Assembly (NCBI GenBank): GCA_963798085.1
Contig: CAWCRS010000003.1
Location: 256,001-320,000 of the forward strand
Length of the DNA stretch: 64,000 nt
Reading direction: 5' to 3'
DNA from: an uncultured Gemmatimonadales bacterium
GTDB taxonomy: Bacteria; Gemmatimonadota; Gemmatimonadetes; Longimicrobiales; RSA9
This document shows positions 16,230 through 52,981 of the stretch, piece by piece. The translations under genes and the position numbers were made by a program. How positions within the stretch are numbered: position 1 is the stretch's first letter; each line of letters starts with the position of its first letter. The notes beneath the pieces were generated by a model, which was not told the DNA's origin, made no database searches, and saw only the letters and a list, made by a program, of their open reading frames with translations.

Positions 16230-17938
16230 ATGCCAAAGCCCATTGCACTCATTGGCGCCGAGTTCGAGGAGAACCTCTCCATCCGCTATCTGGCCGCCGC
16301 TCTGGCGCAGGACGGCTTCACGGCGGAGCTGGTTCCCTTTCACAATGCGGCGGAGACGGCAGCCATTGTGCGCCGCATTGCCGGGCTCGATCCTCTCGCG
16401 GTTGGCATTTCGGTGCCATTCCAGCTGCGTGCCCGCGAGTTCCTGAACCTGGCGCAGGCGCTGCGCGCGGCAGGTGTGCAGGCGCACATCGTCATCGGCG
16501 GCCATTTCGCCACGTTCGAGTACGACAACATCATGCGCGACTTCCCGGCCGTCGATTCCATTGTGCGGCACGAGGGCGAGCACACGCTGCGCGAATTGTG
16601 CTGCCGCCTGCGCGACGGCGAGTCGGTGGCTCGGCATCGCGGGACGCTCACGCGCTGGCCTGATGGCGTCGTCGGACGGGGGCACGCGCCGCCTGCCGGC
16701 CCCTCGATGCGCTTCCATTTCCCGACCGGCGGGGGGCCCGCACGACGGTGATGGGTGTGCCGGTCTCGCCCATCGTGGGCAGTCGCGGGTGCTACGCGGA
16801 CTGCGCGTTCTGCTGCATCTACGCCTATGCCGAGAACGCCGATGGCGCCCGCTACCGCCGCCGCTCGCCGGAGAACATTGCCTGGGAGATGCGGCAGCGA
16901 ATACAAGGAGCGAGGCATTCGCCTGTTCGTCTTCCACGACGACAACTTCTTCGTGCCGTCGGCGAAGCTGAACATCGACGCGCTACACTCGGCTGAAGCA
17001 GTTGCTGGACGGGTACGGCATGAACGACATCGCGCTGGTCATCAAGTGCCGGCCCAACAATGTGGATGCCGAGCTGTTCCGCCTGCTGAAGGGACATGGG
17101 GATGATCCGGGCCTACGTCGGCATCGAGACGAACTCCGACGAAGGCATCGTCTCACTCAACCGGCGCATCACGTCGCAGGACAACCAGCGCGCGCTCGCT
17201 GTGTTCTACGCGAGCTGGATGTCTACTACTCGTACAACGTGCTGATCTTCGACCCGGAAGCGACGCTCGAGGGCGTGGCGCGCAACCTGGACTTCATGCA
17301 GGAACTCAGCGACGTGCCTTTCAACTTCTGCCGCGCGGAGGTCTACGCGGGCACGCCGCTGCAAGCCACATCCTGGAGCAGCAGCGGCGGCTGGAGGGCG
17401 ACTGGTTCGCCTGGGGCTACCAGATGCGCGATGCCCAGGTGGAGGTGCTGTTCCGCATTGCCATCACCGCCTTCGGCAGCGCGCAACTTCAAGCACGACG
17501 GCGTGGCCAACCTCAACCTCGGCATCCGCTTCGACCACGAAGTCGCGCGTCACTTCTTTCCCGAGTCGCGCGATGACGGCCTGCACGCGCGCCTGGTGGA
17601 CCTCTCCGTGCGCATCGGACACGACTCCGTGGCGCTCATGCGGGAAGCGCTCGCGTTCGTGCAGCACGCGGACATCCTCGATTCGGCACTCGTGAAGGCG
17701 TACACGCTCGACCTTGCACGCCGCGTAGCGCGCGCCGACCTCGGGCTTCGTCGCCGAGTGCAGGGCGCTGCGCCGCGAGATGGAGCAGCGCGTCGTCACG
17801 CAAGCGGGCGATCGCCTGGAGCGCACGTTCGGCAGGGGCATGCCGCCCTGGGCTGCGGAATCGTTCCGGCTGGGCAGCTCGGTGGGCCTCGAGGTGTCGA
17901 CGGAAGCGCTGCCCGCGCCCAGCGCGTTCCCCGGCTGA
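16230..17938 (+). CDS. Cobalamin-binding radical SAM enzyme (class B methyltransferase-like), split by about 8 frameshifts
   Basis: B12 domain (ENLSIRYLAAAL..IGGHFAT..EGE), SRGCYADCAFC CxxxCxxC motif, FHDDNF, YVGIE, NFCRAEVYAGTPL. Reconstructed across frames to the TGA at 17936-17938. Confidence 0.85.
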
Positions 17939-17950
17939 GGAGAGCAGATC

Positions 17951-18673
17951 ATGGGAATCAAGGACCAGACCCGGCGCATTGCTGCAGGCGCCAGTGTGGC
18001 GCTCGCGACCAGCGGCCTCAGCAATTGCCGCGACAACGGCGCCGTCGACCCGCCGCCGCCACCGCTCCAGTGCGCTTCACTGAGTGCGGGCGAATCCCTG
18101 GCTGCGACTGGCACTCGCTCGGCAGACACGGTGACGGTCCGCGTGCTCAATTCAGCGGGCTCGGGCTGGCATGTGGAGCGCGTGACGGACGTGATCGGCG
18201 CCACGCTGCTCAGCACGCAGTCGCCGCGCCCGGGGAGCCGCGACACGCTCGGCGTGGTGCTGCATCTTGCCAGCCCCACAATTCCGCAGGTGCTGTTCAC
18301 GGTCGAGGCCACGCTCATCGGCTATAACGGCGAATCCTGCAGCACGCGCCGCACGTTCGAGGTCAACATCACCGGAACCGGCGTGCAGGTCAGCCTTGCC
18401 GATCGCGATCCGCTGCCGCTCGCCGCCCGCCAGCGCGCCGAGATCATCCTCGCGCGGCAGGAGGGTCGCACGGTCGATCTGCAGGCGAAGACGCCGTGGC
18501 AGGGAAGCAGCGACATCACGTGGACCGTGAGCGGCGGAACGGTGGATTCGCGTGCTGGTCGCGACGTGCGCTGGTCGCTCCCCGAAACGCCGGGCCTGTA
18601 CCAGGCCGAGCTGCTGATCGACTTCGGCGATGATGGCTTCGCCATCGACACGCTGCTGCTCGAGGTCGTCTGA
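17951..18673 (+). CDS. Putative lipoprotein with GAVDPPPPP motif and two beta-sandwich (Ig/PKD-like) domains
   Basis: SD GAGGAG, signal-like N-terminus ending LSNC, C-terminal ITWTVSGG..VRWSLP..PGLY. Confidence 0.75.
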   Translation: MGIKDQTRRIAAGASVALATSGLSNCRDNGAVDPPPPPLQCASLSAGESLAATGTRSADTVTVRVLNSAGSGWHVERVTDVIGATLLSTQSPRPGSRDTLGVVLHLASPTIPQVLFTVEATLIGYNGESCSTRRTFEVNITGTGVQVSLADRDPLPLAARQRAEIILARQEGRTVDLQAKTPWQGSSDITWTVSGGTVDSRAGRDVRWSLPETPGLYQAELLIDFGDDGFAIDTLLLEVV

Positions 18674-18715: not shown

Positions 18716-21700
18716 ATGCCAATGACACCGGAGTCGACGATGCCCGAGCCGGCCGTGGCAGGCGGTGCGCGCATTTTCATCTCGTACAGCCGCCGTAATG
18801 CGGAGTCGTTCGCCCGGGAACTGCGAGACCAGTTGAGCGACGCGGGCTTCGCCGTGTGGTGGGACCAGCAGAGCATGGCGAGCCGCGGCGACACCTTCCT
18901 CGACGAAATACAGAAAGCCATCATCGCGGCGCACCGCCTGGTGCTGATTGTCAGTCCGCGTGTCCGCACATCGCCGTACGTGGGCTGGGAGTGGGGTCTG
19001 GCCGAGCGCGAGTGCGTGGTCGTTAATCCTGTGTTGTACGACGGCCCGGATGAGCCCTGCGTGTTCGAGGCGCACTGCCCGCCGGAACTCAGGCAATACG
19101 ACGCCGTCGATTTCCGGAGTGGACAGGATCCGGCGGCGTCGCTTTCCCGACTGCTCCGGCTGCTGGCGGCGGCGCCCGTCCCCCTCGGCACGCTGCACCG
19201 CGTTCCGGAACTGCCGCCGGCGTGGGTGCCGCGAGACGCCGCGCTGCAGGCCGTGGCGCAGCTGGTCCATCCGGACCGCACCGAACCCGCTGTTATCGCC
19301 TCCGCCCTGCGCGCGTCCGCGCTACACGGCATGGGCGGTATCGGCAAGTCCACGCTGGCCGCAGACTTTGCGCGGCGCTGCGGCACGCGGCGTTTCTTTC
19401 CCGACGGGATCCTCTGGACCGCCGTGGGTCGCACTCCCGAGCTGGGCGCCCTGTGCCGCGAAATCGGCAGCGCCCTCGGCGAGGCGGCGGTTGCCAGCGA
19501 GCTGACGCCGGCCGGCGCGCTGGCATCGCTCAGCCGTGCGCTGCTGCAGCGCCGCTGTCTGCTCGTGTTCAATGACGTCTGGGAGCCCGAGCACATCCGG
19601 CCGTTCATCGACATGCAGACGGGGTCGCGGCTGCTCATCACCACGCGCACCGCGTCGCTGGCGCGCTCGACGGGCGCGCGCGAGCACCAGCTGGACATCC
19701 TCGAGCCCGCGGAAGCGCTCGAAGTACTGCGCTCCTGGTCCAGCCCGGAAGAACACGCAGCGGCCTGGGCCTCGCCGCCGGAGGCCGCGCCGATCGTCAA
19801 TGAGTGCGGCCGCCTGCCGCTCGCGCTCGCCATGATCGGCTCCATGGTGCGGGCGGGCGAGGTCGGCTGGACCGAGGCACTCGCGCGGCTGCGCGCGCGT
19901 CAGCTGGGCGACATCCGCGACCGCCTGCCCGCTTACGATCATCCCGACCTGCTGCGCGCCATCGCCGTGAGCGTGGATGCGCTGAGTGATTTCGAGCGCG
20001 CGCGTTACCTCGAGCTGTGCGTGTTCCCCGAGGAATGTGGTGATCCCGCGGGACGCGACGCAGCGCTACTGGTCGGCGTACTGCAATGCGACCGGCGCGA
20101 GCCACCTCTTCACCGCCTTCGCCGACCGGTCGCTGGCCCGCCGCGTCAATGCGGGCATCCTGCTGCATGACCTGCAGCGCGATTACGTGCGTGCCGTAGC
20201 GACGGATGAGCCCGCGCTCCAGCGCCGGCTGCTGGCTGCGCTGCGGCCCGCGGGTGGCTGGTACGCGCTGCGCGATGGCGACTACCTGTTCGACCGGCTG
20301 CTCGAGCACATGGCGCGCACGGACGACGTGGACGCAATCCACACGCTCGTCACGGACCCCTCGGCCAATGGCGGCAACGGGTGGTATCGCACGAAAGGCG
20401 AATGGCATCCCGGTCGCTACCTCGCGGATCTGAGCCGTGCGCGCGCAGTCACGCCCGCCGCGCAGCTCGAGCGCCACGCGCTCTACGCCGTAATGGAGGC
20501 TTCCGTGCGCAGCGCGCAGCGGTCGCTGCCGGCCAGCCTGCTGCGCGCACTCGTCGCCCACCATCTGTGGACCGCGGAACGGGCCGCCGCGCGCGTGCGG
20601 CTGCTGCCCGCCGGACAGCGCGCCCGCGGCATGGTCGAGATCGTGACGGTCGCGCCGCTCGAGGACGGGCTGCCGCTGCTGGCCGAGACGCTGAACGCGA
20701 TCCGCCAGGACTTCCGCTCCATCAGGATCTGGCGGAGCTGGTGCGCGACCTGCCCGGCACGCTGCCCGCCGAGGCGCTGGCTGCGCTGGCCGCGGAAGCC
20801 CGCGCCACGGGCAACTGGCTGGCGCTGGCGCACGTCGCCGCTCGTGCGCCTTCGCCGCGGCACGCGGAGCTGCGCGCCGAGGTGCTGTCCGGCGTGGACC
20901 ATATCACCGAGCGCGCCGCCTGCCTGACCGTGCTCGTGCGGGCGCTGCCTGACATGTCATTAGCGGACGACGTGGCGGACACGCTGGACGCCATTCTGGC
21001 GCTCGACTACCCCGGCTCGATCGCGGAGGCGCTGGAAGAACTCATTCCCGCGCTCGCCGGGGACGTGCTGCGCGAAACGGTCGCCAGATGGCTCGCGCTG
21101 CTCGACTCGGATCGCGTACACGTGTCTCCCATTGCGATCGCACGCTCACTCTGCAGCGTGGCGGCGGCCTCGCCGCAGATTGCGCCGCTGCTCGTGGAGC
21201 GTCTGCCGGCAAGTCTTGCCACCACGCGCGCCATCGCGCTGGCGCTGCTCACGCCGCACCTGCCGCAACCCATGCGCCGGGATATCGCCGCGCGGGCATT
21301 CCAGCTCGCGAGCGAGCGCCGGGAGCTGGATGGCGAAACTGCCTTCGAGCTGGCGCGCGTCGCGGAGTACCTGGATGGCACCCAGGTGGAGCGACTGCGC
21401 ACGGTCGCGCGCGCAGAGTCCGGCTACTGGCGAGGCGGTACGCTGGCCGGGCTCGCGCGCGTGCTGCCCGCCGCCGCATCAGTGGCGCTGGTGGATCAGG
21501 TGATCGAGTCCATTGCCACGGCAGGCGAGTGGCGCGACCGCGAGCACATCGCGGAGCAGGCAGCGCCGTTCCTGCCGGCCGACCGGCTGCTCGAGGCTGC
21601 GCGCGCCACCACACGCGCCGATGACGACCGCGAGCGGTTCGGCGCCGTGCTCGACATGATCGATCACCTCGACGACGCCACGCGCACGGACGTCTTGCGC

Positions 21701-22843
21701 CAGCTCCTCGACGTCGCGGCAGGCTCGAGCGAGAGCACGCGCGCCGAGGACCTCACGCAGATCGCTTCGCTGCTGCCGGAATCGCTGCTCGAACGCGCGA
21801 CCGGGATCGCGCGCGGCGTGGGCTCGCCGCGCTTGCGCGTGCGGGCACTGGGCGCGCTCGTATCGCGCAGACCCGCGCTCCTCGCCGAGGCTGATGCCGC
21901 CGTGCACGAAGTGGAGGACGCGGCCGAGAAGGGACACGCGCTCGCGCGCCTCATCCGCTGCCGCAAGCCGGAAGGGCAACACGAGGCCATCGCTGTGCTG
22001 CTCCCGCTGCTCGACGCGGAGAAGCACGACGAGACGCGTGCAGAAAGCATTGCCGCCATCCTGCCCTTCGCCGGCGCTGCGGCCGCTTCGATGGCGCACG
22101 ACGCCGTGGTGCGTTACCGCCATCACGGCGCGGCCATGCGCTTCCTCGTGCCGCACCTCGGGATCGAGCCGTTGCGCGAATACGCGGACCACCTCCAGTG
22201 GATCGACGCGTACAACGCACTGGCCGCGCTGCCCGAGCTGATGGTGCGGCTCTGCCGCACGGGCTACCCGGCGGAAGCGTGGACGCGGCTGAAGTCGATC
22301 GAACGCGACGACGCACCGGCACGCGCCCGCGCCGTGGCCGCCATGGCGCCCCTGATGCGTGTCAGTGATCTGTCAGAGGCACCTGCCTGGCTCGCAGCGC
22401 TGGACAACCATTACGCCAGCGAACCCGCGCTGGTCGAGGTGCTCGAAGCTCTCGCTGCGGCGGGCCACGGGCAGCACGCGCGGGAGCTGGCCGGCGCCAT
22501 GACGGATCCCATGCGCCACGCCGCTGCGCTCGCGGCGATCGCACGGCACAGCAACGACGCGCGCCCGCTCGTCGACCAGGCCGTCGCGATTGTGGAATCG
22601 CTGCCCTATGCGGAGACGCGGTGGCTCACCGTGCGCAAGCTGGCCGCGGCGCTCGCGACGCTCGACCCGACCGACATTCCGCCACTGCTCGCCCGCCTGC
22701 TCGCCTCGCTCTGCCAGACGCTGCGGCTGAACTTCGTTCCCGAGCTGAACGTGCTGGCCCCCGCGTTCGCGCGCGCCGGCGGGCCCGATGCGGTCGCAGC
22801 ACTGCGGCGGGTCGTGCAGCAATGCGCGGTGTGGTGGCCGTGA
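18716..22843 (+). CDS. TIR - NB-ARC (STAND) - APAF1-like helical - alpha-repeat protein, frameshifts near 20033 and 20718
   Basis: TIR: IFISYSR..WWD..SPYVGWEW. Walker A GMGGIGKST, Walker B LLVFNDVW, LLITTR, GRLPLAL, LHDLQRDY, then long helical repeats. Confidence 0.85.
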
Positions 22844-22962: not shown

Positions 22963-22990
22963 TTGACATATTCCCATATTGGAATATCAT
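22963..22990 (+). promoter_or_regulatory. Sigma70 promoter overlapped by a palindromic operator
   Basis: TTGACA (22963), 16-bp spacer, TATCAT (22985). Inverted repeat ATATTCC-N6-GGAATAT at 22968-22987. ATG follows at 22997. Confidence 0.75.
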
Positions 22991-50505: not shown

Positions 50506-52981
50506 TTATTCCGCCGACAAGGCGACGAGCGGGTCGATGCGTGCCGCGCGCGCAGCCGGGATGAGAATGGCGACGATCGCGACCATGGCCAGCAGCAGTC
50601 CGACCGCCGCGAACGTGAGGCGGTCAGTGTCGCTTACACCGAACAGGAGCGATTGCATGAAGCGGGTGAGCGCCCACGCGCCGGCGAGGCCGCTGGCGAG
50701 ACCGCTGGCGGCGAGCACGCTGCCCTGGCGCAGCACCATGCCCAGGATGCTTCGCTGCGACGCGCCCAGCGCCACGCGGATGCCGATATCGCGCGTGCCC
50801 TGGCTCACGATACAGCTCATTACGCCGTACGTGCCAATGGCGGCGAGCACGAGCGCGAAGCCGGCGAAAATGGTGAGCAGTGTCATGGCGAAGCGCGGGC
50901 GTGCGAGCGCCGCGTCGACGCGTTCGTCCATGCTGCGCGCGCGATACATCGGCAGATCCCGATCGACGGCCTGCAATGCGGTGCGAACGGCGGGCGCGAT
51001 GGTTTCCGGCGGACGTGTCGACCGCACCGTGACGTAGAGCGAGCGCGTGTTGAACTGCGTCTGCGCCAGGTACATCGCGATGCGGCCGTCCGCATCGAGA
51101 CCGTACTGCTTCACGCGCCCCACCACACCGACGACGGTCATCCAGTCGTTCGTGCCGGACGAGATGGGTCCGAGACGCAGTCGCTTTCCCACTGCATCCT
51201 GACCCGGCCAGTACTGATCGGCGAGGTACTCGTCGATGATGACGACGCGCGGCGCATCGGCACGGTCGGCTTCCGAGAAATACCGGCCACTGCGGAGCGG
51301 GATCTTCATCGCCTCGAAGTAGCGGCCGCCAACGACGCGCTGATCGGCGTTGATGAAGTCATCGCCGCCGGGCGGTGTGTAGCCTTCGACGGTGATCGGT
51401 CCCCACGCCATGTATCCGGAGAGGGGCAACGACGTGATGCCCCCGGCATACTCGACGCCCGGCACCGCCTGCAGCCGCTGCCACAGGTTCTCGTAGGCAT
51501 TGAGAACGGCGGGACCGTTCGGATACTGCGGACCGGCGAGGGACAGCTCGAACGTGAGTACGCCCCCGGGATCGAAGCCGGGTGGCACGTCGCGCAAACG
51601 GCTGAAGCTGCGGATCAGCAGGCCGGCGCCGATCAGCAGAATGAGGGAGAGTCCGAGTTCGCCGGCCACCAGCACGCGGTGCAACCGGCCGCCGCGTCCC
51701 CACATCGCGTTCGCGCCAATGGAGCCGCGACCCGCGTCCTTGAGTGCGCTCTGCAGATCGAGTCTGCCCATGCCGAGCGCGGGCGCAGTGCCGAACAGCA
51801 AGGCCGATGCGAAACACAGGCCGGTTGTGAACAGGAGTACGGGCAGCGTAATGCCGATGTGGTCGAGCCGCGGCACGTTGGGCGGCTGGAGCGCGCGCAT
51901 CCACGCAATGCCGCCGAGCGCCAGCACCAGCCCGAGCAGACCACCGGCTGCTGCGAGCACCAGCGATTCGGTGAGAAGCTGGCGCGTGATGCGGCGCGCG
52001 CGTCGCGCCCAGCGCGGAACGGACCGTGATCTCGCGCTGCCGGCCGAGTGCGCGCGAAAGCAGCAGGTTCGCCACGTTGGCACAGGCAATGAGCAGCACG
52101 AACGCCACCGCGCCGACGAGGATCAGCAGGGGTCGTCGGACGGTGCCGACCACCTGGTCGAGCAACGGCACCACGCTGAACGTCAGGCCGCCATTGGGCG
52201 GATAATTCGCGGGAAAGTCGCGACGCAAACGCGCTGTCAGGCGATCCATGTCCGCCTGAGCGGCGGCGACGCTGACACCGTGTTTGAGCCGTGCGATGAT
52301 GTTGTAGTCCTCGCGCCCGCGGAAACCGGCGGCGCCCGCCTGCATGGGAAGCGGCAGGAAGATGTCGCCGTCATCCGCCATGCCCAGCGTGGGCAGCACT
52401 TCGTGCGGCAGCCTGAAGCTCTGCGCCAGCACACCCACGATCTCGATCGCCTGGCCGTTGAGTCGGATGCTGCGTCCGATGACGCCGGGATCCGCGGCGT
52501 AGCGGTGAACCCACGTGTCGTGTCCGAGCACGGCCTTCGGGGCGCGGCCCGCGTGGTCGTCATCCGCCACGAACAGCGCACCGTGCGCGGCCGCGGCGCC
52601 CAGCATGGGCAGCAGATTCGACGACACACGGATGACGCCGACACGCTCGGGCTGGCTCTCGTCATCGGTGAGGTTCATCGTGTTGCCCAGCGCGATGGCG
52701 ACGTCGTCGAAGCTCGCGTTGTTGTTCCGGATGTCGAAGTACTGCGCCGTCGAGAACCAGTCCTCCGTGATGTTCAGGCCGGGCGAGCGGTTCCAGAGGA
52801 TGGCGAGCCGATCCGCGTGGGCGTAGGGCAGCGGGCTCAGCAGCAGTGCATGCGTGACGCTGAAGAGCGCCGTGTTCGCGCCAATGCCGATGCCCAGCGA
52901 GAGCACGGCCGCGCCCGCGAAGACAGGTTGCCGCGCGAAATGCCTGAGCGCATAGCGGATGTCTCGAGCCAGCATCGTCAT
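50506..52981 (-). CDS. ADOP-family duplicated ABC permease without prefix domain, +1 frameshift near 51998
   Basis: DIRYALR, LGIGIGANTALFSV, LLIACANVANLLL, GTRDIGIRVALGA, AARIDP. Confidence 0.88.

What the first reader, a model, noticed from the sequence alone, without database searches (positions are those of the whole stretch)
18716..22843. TIR-NB-ARC-helical repeat protein: bacterial NLR-like candidate defence sensor
Seen: after joining three frames, a protein of about 1370 aa with a TIR domain that keeps the catalytic-type Glu (SPYVGWEW) and a full NB-ARC motif set (P-loop, LITTR, GxPLAL, LHD). It also has an APAF1-like helical segment and about 700 aa of alpha-helical repeats rather than WD40. 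Walker B reads FNDVW instead of the usual LDDVW. Established: STAND proteins with TIR effectors (Avs/bacterial NLR-related) sense phage proteins and deplete NAD+ or make signals. Inference: this may be an uncharacterised architecture of that class.
Basis: partly seen in the sequence, partly recalled or inferred. Interest (0 to 1): 0.7.

Follow-up and report, generated by a model that had tools for sequence, protein, structure and literature searches.

The report
Apaf-1-like receptor with swappable helical sensor
This bacterial gene, whose breaks are likely sequencing errors, encodes a relative of the animal cell-death switch Apaf-1 with a predicted NAD-cleaving head and an uncatalogued helical-repeat tail that many other receptor ATPases also carry, so it likely works as an immune sensor of a known general type with an unknown trigger.

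Summary
Observation confirmed. Three frames read through as one 1,367-aa protein, 55.5% identical and collinear to an intact homologue (P0004, 1,363 aa). It has a TIR domain with the conserved Glu, an Apaf-1-type NB-ARC/WHD/HD2 module and a helical solenoid. The two frameshifts and the Walker B Asn are most likely assembly errors. 10 of 46 conserved genes in this assembly are frameshifted; short-read contigs read CGATG at 4 of 15 covered CAATG sites; and the Asn codon (1 of 182 relatives) lies in that motif. No listed contig bridges these three sites, so this is inferred. TIR-NB-ARC-repeat receptors are a known class. What is new is the tail: a bracketed cassette (arm block, 32/36-aa repeats, cap ending RWWP) with no Pfam, NCBIfam or PADLOC model and 511 relatives. 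It follows several STAND ATPase types and effectors (TIR, caspase, trypsin, CHAT, kinase), mostly in Chloroflexota, Planctomycetota and Methanotrichaceae. In relatives, near-identical repeats vary at positions 12, 13 and 16 (pN/pS about 2.4); here the repeats are degenerate. The neighbourhood is not a defence island, and function is untested. Verdict: new variant of a known kind.

The parts
18740..22843 (+). Single STAND receptor gene, 1,367 aa when read through two compensating breaks (alternative starts 18716/18722; GGAG at 18730-18733)
18773..19156 (+). TIR domain; conserved Glu at 18989-18991
   Evidence: Pfam TIR_2 73.5 bits; Glu in 63 of 70 aligned TIRs; aligns with the Glu of bacterial TIR 7uxr, E 8e-4
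19208..20038 (+). NB-ARC / AP-ATPase, Apaf-1 type: P-loop 19328-19354, Walker B 19565-19582, LITTR 19634-19648, RLPLAL 19811-19828
19570..19574 (+). CAATG holding the Walker B Asn codon (19571-19573); likely a G-to-A miscall of an Asp codon
   Evidence: N in 1 of 182 NB-ARC rows; same motif differs from short-read contigs elsewhere in the window; site itself not bridged by a listed contig
20033..20039 (+). Break 1 (one extra base, in GAATG)
20040..20360 (+). Winged helix with LHD motif (20163-20171) and start of the Apaf-1-like helical domain
20361..20633 (+). Arm block that opens the sensor cassette
   Evidence: in 63 of 63 cap+NB-ARC, 72 of 72 cap non-NB-ARC and 0 of 73 WD40-sensor proteins
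20715..20723 (+). Break 2 (one base missing, beside CATC)
20723..22606 (+). Alpha-solenoid of degenerate helical repeats (family unit 32 or 36 aa)
22607..22843 (+). Conserved C-terminal cap of about 78 aa ending WWP-stop
   Evidence: cap HMM E 1.5e-24 on this gene (the gene was in the training alignment); cap in 128 of 149 listed tail relatives

Best explanation
The gene encodes a TIR / Apaf-1-type ATPase / helical-solenoid protein that is likely intact in the cell and likely acts as a ligand-gated immune switch: an unknown foreign protein would bind the solenoid, the ATPase would oligomerise, and the clustered TIR domains would cleave NAD+. Shown: the domain order, the conserved motifs, the intact homologue, and the membership of the tail in a cassette family (arm block, repeats, RWWP cap) that follows different STAND ATPases and effectors. 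Inferred from the assembly's error pattern: both frameshifts and the Walker B Asn are errors. Inferred from established Apaf-1, plant TIR-NLR and Avs biology: an autoinhibited nucleotide-bound resting state, activation by ligand, oligomerisation, and NAD+ depletion or signal production leading to arrest or death of the infected cell. Speculative: the conserved arm and cap clamp the solenoid as an autoinhibitory latch, and this collinear, non-homogenised array has settled on one conserved ligand such as a core phage protein.
For: Intact collinear homologue. 10 of 46 orthologue pairs are frameshifted in this assembly (0.18 breaks/kb) against 1 of 41 in the reverse control, where the one case mirrors a break in this assembly; two or more breaks in 4.1 kb then have P about 0.17. 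The adjacent radical-SAM-like gene is split here but is one ORF in 5 of 5 related loci, and a short-read contig with 0 substitutions is one base shorter across it. Five of 9 low-depth short-read differences are CAATG versus CGATG (binomial 1e-11). The nearest solved ATPase is Apaf-1. The TIR Glu is conserved. Among 31 chosen relatives the same tail follows TIR (3), caspase (3), trypsin (2), CHAT (2) and kinase (1) heads, and one carries an Avs3a-like N-terminus at 690 bits. On the NB-ARC tree the cap label needs 9 changes, at least 6 forced by starred branches (FastTree). The gene is patchy: the tail was not found in 60 relatives or in 300 phylum genomes (three hits were unrelated). Positions 12/13/16 of near-identical repeats in relatives show pN/pS 2.4 (gene bootstrap 1.8-3.1).
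Against: No listed short-read contig bridges either break or Walker B. At invariant catalytic Asp sites in the CGATG context only 1 of 12 reads Asn (Fisher p 0.23), and the genome-wide CAATG excess (1.58x) is matched by other AT-rich 5-mers. The sequencing platform is not known. No NCBIfam defence gene was found near the gene among 49 window ORFs. Only 2 of 19 family loci have a PADLOC hit at E <= 1e-20 within 4 kb, with no matched control. No Avs model matches this gene. The second-nearest solved STAND is the Streptomyces regulator AfsR, so this ATPase clade includes non-defence proteins. No activity, trigger or phage protection has been shown.
Confidence: 0.6

Rival explanations
1. The gene is intact but is a non-defence signalling STAND: it senses a host or stress ligand, and the TIR makes a second messenger or scaffolds partners.
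For: Housekeeping-type neighbourhood; weak defence linkage of family loci (2 of 19); AfsR is in the same ATPase clade; Lee 2026 section 5 says defence and non-defence STAND clades are interspersed.
Against: No DNA-binding domain; the heads found on the cassette are death/immunity effectors; patchy distribution; diversifying repeat positions in relatives.
Confidence: 0.18
2. The gene is a recently inactivated pseudogene: the two indels and the Walker B change are real.
For: Three lesions in one gene; the family produces many remnants, including cap-only copies and an NB-ARC fused to the cap; the sites are not bridged by listed contigs.
Against: No in-frame stop in 1,367 codons and even GC3 of 0.85-0.89; the same assembly breaks conserved genes at a rate that accounts for two breaks; all three lesions lie in or beside the motif at which short reads disagree with the assembly.
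Confidence: 0.13
3. The frame is intact but Walker B Asn is real, giving a hydrolysis-impaired helper or decoy receptor.
For: The codon is AAT as written; the preceding Phe is also unique (1 of 182); degenerate Walker motifs occur in KpAvs8 (Lee 2026, Extended Data Fig. 11 legend).
Against: P0004 has LDDVW; 180 of 182 rows have Asp; the codon lies in CAATG, of which 4 of 15 covered sites read CGATG in short-read contigs.
Confidence: 0.06
4. The pieces are separate genes or are joined by programmed frameshifting.
For: Three ORFs as assembled.
Against: Break 1 cuts the ATPase module; the homologue is one ORF with no gap at either junction; no close split relative was found among 243-772-aa proteins at E <= 1e-60 apart from the window's own piece and one 719-aa protein.
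Confidence: 0.03

Closest known systems
Bacterial Apaf-1 orthologues / AP-ATPase STANDs (Lee et al. 2026, PMC13581612, section 5; human Apaf-1, PDB 1z6t)
   Same: NB-ARC, winged helix and helical domain match Apaf-1 117-505 at E 3e-70; the gene sits in a 36-row NB-ARC clade of which 25 have WD40 sensors; an enzymatic effector is fused N-terminally.
   Different: The paper describes beta-propeller sensors for these orthologues; here the sensor is an alpha-solenoid cassette. The head is TIR, not CARD or caspase.
NLR-like NB-ARC/NACHT-repeat proteins of multicellular prokaryotes (Dyrka et al., bioRxiv 10.1101/2020.01.06.895854; Kaur et al. PMC7159879, PMC8195603; passages only)
   Same: Effector-NTPase-repeat order; TIR, caspase, trypsin and kinase heads; enrichment in Chloroflexi, cyanobacteria and aggregate-forming archaea; repeats of high internal conservation are already noted there.
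   Different: Those passages name TPR and WD repeats. This repeat, the arm block and the RWWP cap hit no TPR or other Pfam model. No amyloid motif, EAD partner or ternary system was seen next to this gene.
Avs anti-phage receptors (Avs1-5 in PADLOC/NCBIfam; Avs7-21 in Lee 2026)
   Same: Effector-STAND-helical sensor layout; like the Avs7 sensor, this one spans several STAND clades and effectors; one relative has an Avs3a-like N-terminus.
   Different: No Avs model matches this gene; no Avs structure appears among the listed sequence or fold hits. Whether the cassette is one of the 684 sensor clusters could not be checked.
Fungal HET-E/HET-D-type NLRs with high-internal-conservation repeats (as summarised in the Dyrka passage)
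   Same: Relatives have near-identical repeats with a few diversifying positions.
   Different: The repeat type differs, and the window's own array is not homogenised.
TON_1535 of Thermococcus onnurineus (PDB 3zpj)
   Same: Best solved-structure match of the tail profile, E 7e-12.
   Different: A 359-aa chain with no function given; designer PPR proteins score almost as well, so the match may reflect generic helical-repeat composition.

Membership tests
STAND NTPase, AP-ATPase / NB-ARC clade | NB-ARC domain above the curated cut-off with P-loop Lys, sensor-1 Arg and GxP | tested here: met
   104 bits vs cut-off 23.5; K 182/182, R 180/182, P 173/182
STAND NTPase, AP-ATPase / NB-ARC clade | Walker B with first Asp | tested here: inconclusive
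   Asn as written; Asp in P0004 and in 180 of 182; likely miscall but site not bridged
STAND NTPase, AP-ATPase / NB-ARC clade | Winged helix with MHD/LHD motif followed by a helical domain | tested here: met
   LHD at 20163; profile matches Apaf-1 to residue 505
TIR NADases | TIR fold with catalytic-position Glu | tested here: met
TIR NADases | NAD+ cleavage or cyclic ADP-ribose production | not testable with these tools
   needs an enzyme assay
Bacterial Apaf-1 orthologues (Lee 2026) | WD40 beta-propeller sensor | tested here: not met
   no WD40 hit; all-helical model
Avs1-5 (PADLOC 2.0 / NCBIfam models) | Match to an Avs family HMM | tested here: not met
   only TIR-region hits for the pieces and for P0004
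Avs7-21 and the 684 sensor clusters of Lee 2026 | Sensor falls in a defined structural cluster | tested here: inconclusive
   three supplement files too large to read; motif absent from the 7 readable files, whose long cells are cut; no Avs chain among listed fold hits
Bacterial NACHT NLR-related proteins | NACHT module | tested here: not met
   NACHT 16.9 bits, below cut-off 26.7; NB-ARC 104 bits
FxSxx-COOH system TIR-AP-ATPase-TPR protein | NF040586 above cut-off | tested here: not met
   74.7 bits vs cut-off 300, ATPase region only
NLRs with high-internal-conservation repeats | Near-identical repeat units within the protein | tested here: not met
   this gene: 3 weak repeat hits, P0004: none; relatives: 50 of 134 have a repeat pair at least 80% identical
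Anti-phage defence systems | Protection against phage or activation by a phage protein | not testable with these tools
   context gives no support in the window and weak support in relatives

The most novel reading that the evidence does not exclude
The arm-repeat-RWWP cassette is a reprogrammable receptor module of filamentous bacteria and archaea. Fixed brackets let it plug into any STAND ATPase, while recombination among 32/36-residue repeats and a three-position code (12, 13, 16) rewrites its specificity, in the way TALE or PPR repeats are coded, possibly for nucleic acid. This gene would be a copy whose code has frozen on one target.
Probability: 0.15. Interest if true: 0.85.

Novelty: new variant of a known kind. 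Interest (0 to 1): 0.47.

Why it matters
The gene itself is one more untested TIR-STAND receptor. The useful result is a sharply bounded sensor cassette that the domain libraries searched here do not model, with at least 511 representative proteins. It is exchanged with WD40 and TPR sensors on the Apaf-1-like ATPase and carries diversifying repeat positions. That makes two questions testable: what the NLR-like proteins of multicellular prokaryotes detect, and whether their repeats follow a binding code. The case also warns that in this assembly frameshifts and Asp-to-Asn oddities near GATG/CATC should be treated as probable errors.

Tried and rejected
Reads: three runs of one sample were laid; none of the listed pieces bridges the breaks or Walker B, and no RNA holder was listed. 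Loci for P0004 were not found in genome or metagenome contigs, so its neighbourhood is unknown. Operon with the upstream radical-SAM-like pair: rejected; the pair is conserved in 5 loci with no TIR, NB-ARC or cap within the fetched flanks, though one contig ends just downstream. Genome-wide 5-mer, orthologue Asp/Asn (6 of 60 vs 16 of 396) and catalytic-site tests of the error motif were weak. Three phylum hits of the tail profile were unrelated peptidase-like repeat proteins with no cap. Viral contigs: 1 match to the cap pattern, with no cap domain. Fold searches gave only generic HEAT/ARM solenoids (best Z 13.9, rmsd 8.1, 289 aligned; Foldseek TM at most 0.33), within the range expected for helical repeats; no Avs chain was listed. 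The ESM Atlas returned unnamed clusters and minor TPR annotation. Literature: 'RWWP' gave nothing relevant among the 20 listed of 34 papers; 'Ton1535' gave none; the repeat-protein survey PMC10392669 has no STAND, NB-ARC or TPR terms.
Full report
Observation. The region 18716-22843 codes in frames +2, +3, +2. The first piece carries TIR_2 (73.5 bits) and NB-ARC (104 bits); the other two pieces have no Pfam, PADLOC or NCBIfam match above cut-off. An intact 1,363-aa protein, P0004, matches all three pieces in order. Read through with X at the two breaks from ATG 18740, the product is 1,367 aa, has no stop, and is identical to P0004 at 760 of 1,369 columns, with no gap within 15 residues of either break. 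Identity by region is TIR 60%, NB-ARC 67%, WHD/HD2 61%, repeats 49% and cap 60%.

Are the lesions real? The genome is 6.2 Mb in 12 contigs; a long-read assembly is inferred, not known. I took 20 stretches (394 kb) of the one same-genus genome. Of its 100 predicted genes, 46 had orthologue-like matches here, and 10 of those 46 change frame (11 breaks, 0.18 per kb). One of them begins like DNA gyrase B (name recalled). The reverse control gave 1 of 41, and that case mirrors a break in this assembly. At this rate two or more breaks in 4.1 kb have P about 0.17. The upstream radical-SAM-like gene is split over several frames here but is one ORF in 5 of 5 related loci. A short-read contig with no substitution over 17375-17644 is one base shorter than the window.

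The substitutions share a motif. Of 9 listed differences that I took from low-depth, near-identical contigs of run X1, 5 are window CAATG versus read CGATG, on either strand (binomial 1e-11); I left out rows from deeper or more divergent contigs. Within the 3,026 bases of the eight long listed pieces, 4 of 15 CAATG sites read CGATG. The Walker B Asn codon lies in CAATG, and Asn occurs in 1 of 182 NB-ARC rows. Break 1 lies in GAATG and break 2 beside CATC. A preprint (10.64898/2026.01.14.699587, abstract only) reports G-to-A nanopore errors concentrated at methylation motifs. Against this reading: no listed piece covers the three sites; X1 may be another strain; only 1 of 12 invariant catalytic Asp sites in that context reads Asn; and genome-wide word counts are not decisive. 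I put the gene at about 85% intact.

The ATPase and effector. The nearest solved structure is human Apaf-1 (E 2e-17 for the piece; E 3e-70 over residues 117-505 for a 14-sequence profile), followed by AfsR and plant NLRs. The TIR keeps the Glu found in 63 of 70 aligned TIRs. It weakly resembles bacterial TIRs and SARM1 (best E 8e-4).

The tail. A search of 1.84 billion representatives found 511 proteins at E <= 0.001 and 138 at E <= 1e-10. Of the 149 listed (including the window's own piece), 128 carry a roughly 78-aa C-terminal cap, and 90 of 146 end exactly in WWP. The repeat unit is 32 aa (835 spacings) or 36 aa (512), with a median of 17.5 units in 144 long proteins. A 90-aa arm block lies ahead of the array in 63 of 63 cap proteins with NB-ARC (the HMM was trained on 54 NB-ARC members), in 72 of 72 cap proteins without NB-ARC, and in 0 of 73 WD40-sensor proteins. 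It precedes the first strong repeat in 70 of 70, and the arm-to-end length ranges from 172 to 1,443 aa. The sensor is therefore a bracketed cassette.

What carries the cassette. Among 31 relatives chosen for variety, it follows NB-ARC, AAA_16, NACHT or NPHP3-like ATPases, with TIR, caspase, trypsin, CHAT or kinase heads; 5 had no Pfam hit. One has an Avs3a-like N-terminus. On a FastTree tree of 182 NB-ARC domains, this gene and P0004 sit in a 36-row group (support 95) with 25 WD40 proteins, apart from a 55-row all-cap clade. The cap label needs 9 changes, at least 6 forced by starred branches. I ran no clade test and did not root the tree, so the direction of swapping is not shown. The single-sequence model is an all-helical solenoid of modest confidence; its fold matches are generic HEAT/ARM proteins. 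The tail profile's best PDB sequence hits are TON_1535 and designer PPR proteins.

Distribution. An exact DNA pattern for one version of the cap found 72 stretches (71 loci) in GTDB genomes. The pattern is biased and would not match this gene's own end. The tail was not found in 60 relatives of this genome, and the three hits among 300 phylum genomes were unrelated, so the gene is rare in its lineage. Many family loci are remnants or are frameshifted.

Repeat evolution in relatives. 50 of 134 proteins have a repeat pair at least 80% identical. In 61 nearest-neighbour repeat pairs from 19 genes, positions 12, 13 and 16 have pN 0.30 against overall pS 0.12 (ratio 2.4, gene bootstrap 1.8-3.1), while frame positions are far below 1. 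Caveats: the positions were chosen after seeing protein entropy; pS at those same codons is 0.19 (ratio 1.6); the seed pattern fixes several conserved positions; pairs are not independent; and positions 27-32 are confounded by the 36-aa variant. The window's own repeats are degenerate and collinear with P0004, so this result describes the family and not this gene.

Context. NCBIfam on 49 window ORFs gave permeases, regulators, prenyltransferase, oxidoreductases, ABC transport and signalling genes, and no defence gene above cut-off. The gene lies between the conserved radical-SAM-like pair and an ArsR/SRPBCC pair that has its own promoter-like site. For 19 family loci, 115 of 122 neighbouring ORFs within 4 kb were scanned (I dropped a near-duplicate locus, two repeated rows and one family gene). 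Two loci had PADLOC hits at E <= 1e-20 (Ssp/Dnd-like; Hma). Pfam on 57 chosen neighbours showed other STAND, caspase, TIR and recombinase genes at 6 loci. There was no matched control, so this is weak support.

Mechanism. The steps from ligand binding through nucleotide exchange and oligomerisation to TIR activation follow established Apaf-1, plant TIR-NLR and Avs biology and are inferred here. In Lee 2026 the Avs7 sensor's C-lobe contacts the NTPase and effector in the inactive state (Extended Data Fig. 7 legend); the conserved cap could act likewise, but no complex prediction was available.

Comparison with print. Lee 2026 (PMC13581612): I read the abstract, passages, sections 5, 6, 13, 15 and 44, and searched 7 supplement files; three files were too large to read and may list this sensor among 684 clusters. 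Dyrka (bioRxiv 10.1101/2020.01.06.895854), Kaur 2020 (PMC7159879) and Kaur 2021 (PMC8195603): passages only. These establish the general class, its enrichment in multicellular prokaryotes, and bacterial repeats of high internal conservation. Nine full-text searches showed no paper naming this cassette, or testing a bacterial TIR-NB-ARC-helical receptor, among the listed titles; subscription journals are mostly not covered. Earlier unchecked notes of this scan appear to describe the same repeat in other genomes.

Verdict. A real and likely intact gene, and a new variant of a known kind. The odd Walker B and the breaks are likely artefacts; the sensor cassette is the part worth following. Interest 0.47.

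Noticed in passing
whole assembly G000; window 12957, 13770, 16344, 28003, 28038, 28118: Systematic-looking errors near GATG/CATC (CGATG read as CAATG; single extra bases); 10 of 46 conserved genes are frameshifted. Other findings from this genome should be read with that in mind.
   Followed up: yes
window 16230-17938 and 17951-18673 (+): A B12-radical-SAM-like gene (weak HpnR hit) and a 240-aa gene with no family match form a conserved pair in 5 other loci; two genomes carry tandem copies of the 240-aa gene.
   Followed up: partly
window 50506-52981 (-): An ADOP permease split into two frames, probably another assembly break.
   Followed up: no
L002, L003, L004 and genome-wide: Three more STAND genes in this genome (TIR-NB-ARC-WD40-like, TIR-NB-ARC-TPR-like, and a cyclase-like-STAND-TPR by eye) and 16 ORFs with TIR-like hits: the same TIR-ATPase chassis with three different sensors in one genome.
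   Followed up: partly
L008, L029, L035, L055, L065 (cap only); L054 (NB-ARC fused to cap, 437 aa); L017 (two caps 120 bp apart): Orphan caps and internal deletions suggest rapid birth and death, or recombination, of the cassette.
   Followed up: partly
L042:2731-12178 (-): Two cassette genes flank a caspase-domain gene and an unknown 597-aa gene in one apparent operon.
   Followed up: no
P0144: An Avs3a-like N-terminal region (690 bits over 1-450) joined to about 20 homogenised cassette repeats.
   Followed up: no
PDB 3zpj: The solved archaeal protein TON_1535 matches the repeat profile (E 7e-12) and could serve as a structural template; no paper naming it was found in the library.
   Followed up: partly
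whole assembly G000: TGTTA/TAACA and GTTAG/CTAAC are 7-10 times more frequent than in the same-genus stretches (only 17-20 counts there); possibly a second error-prone motif.
   Followed up: no
window 22963-22990 (+): An 11-of-12 sigma-70-like promoter upstream of the ArsR/SRPBCC pair.
   Followed up: no
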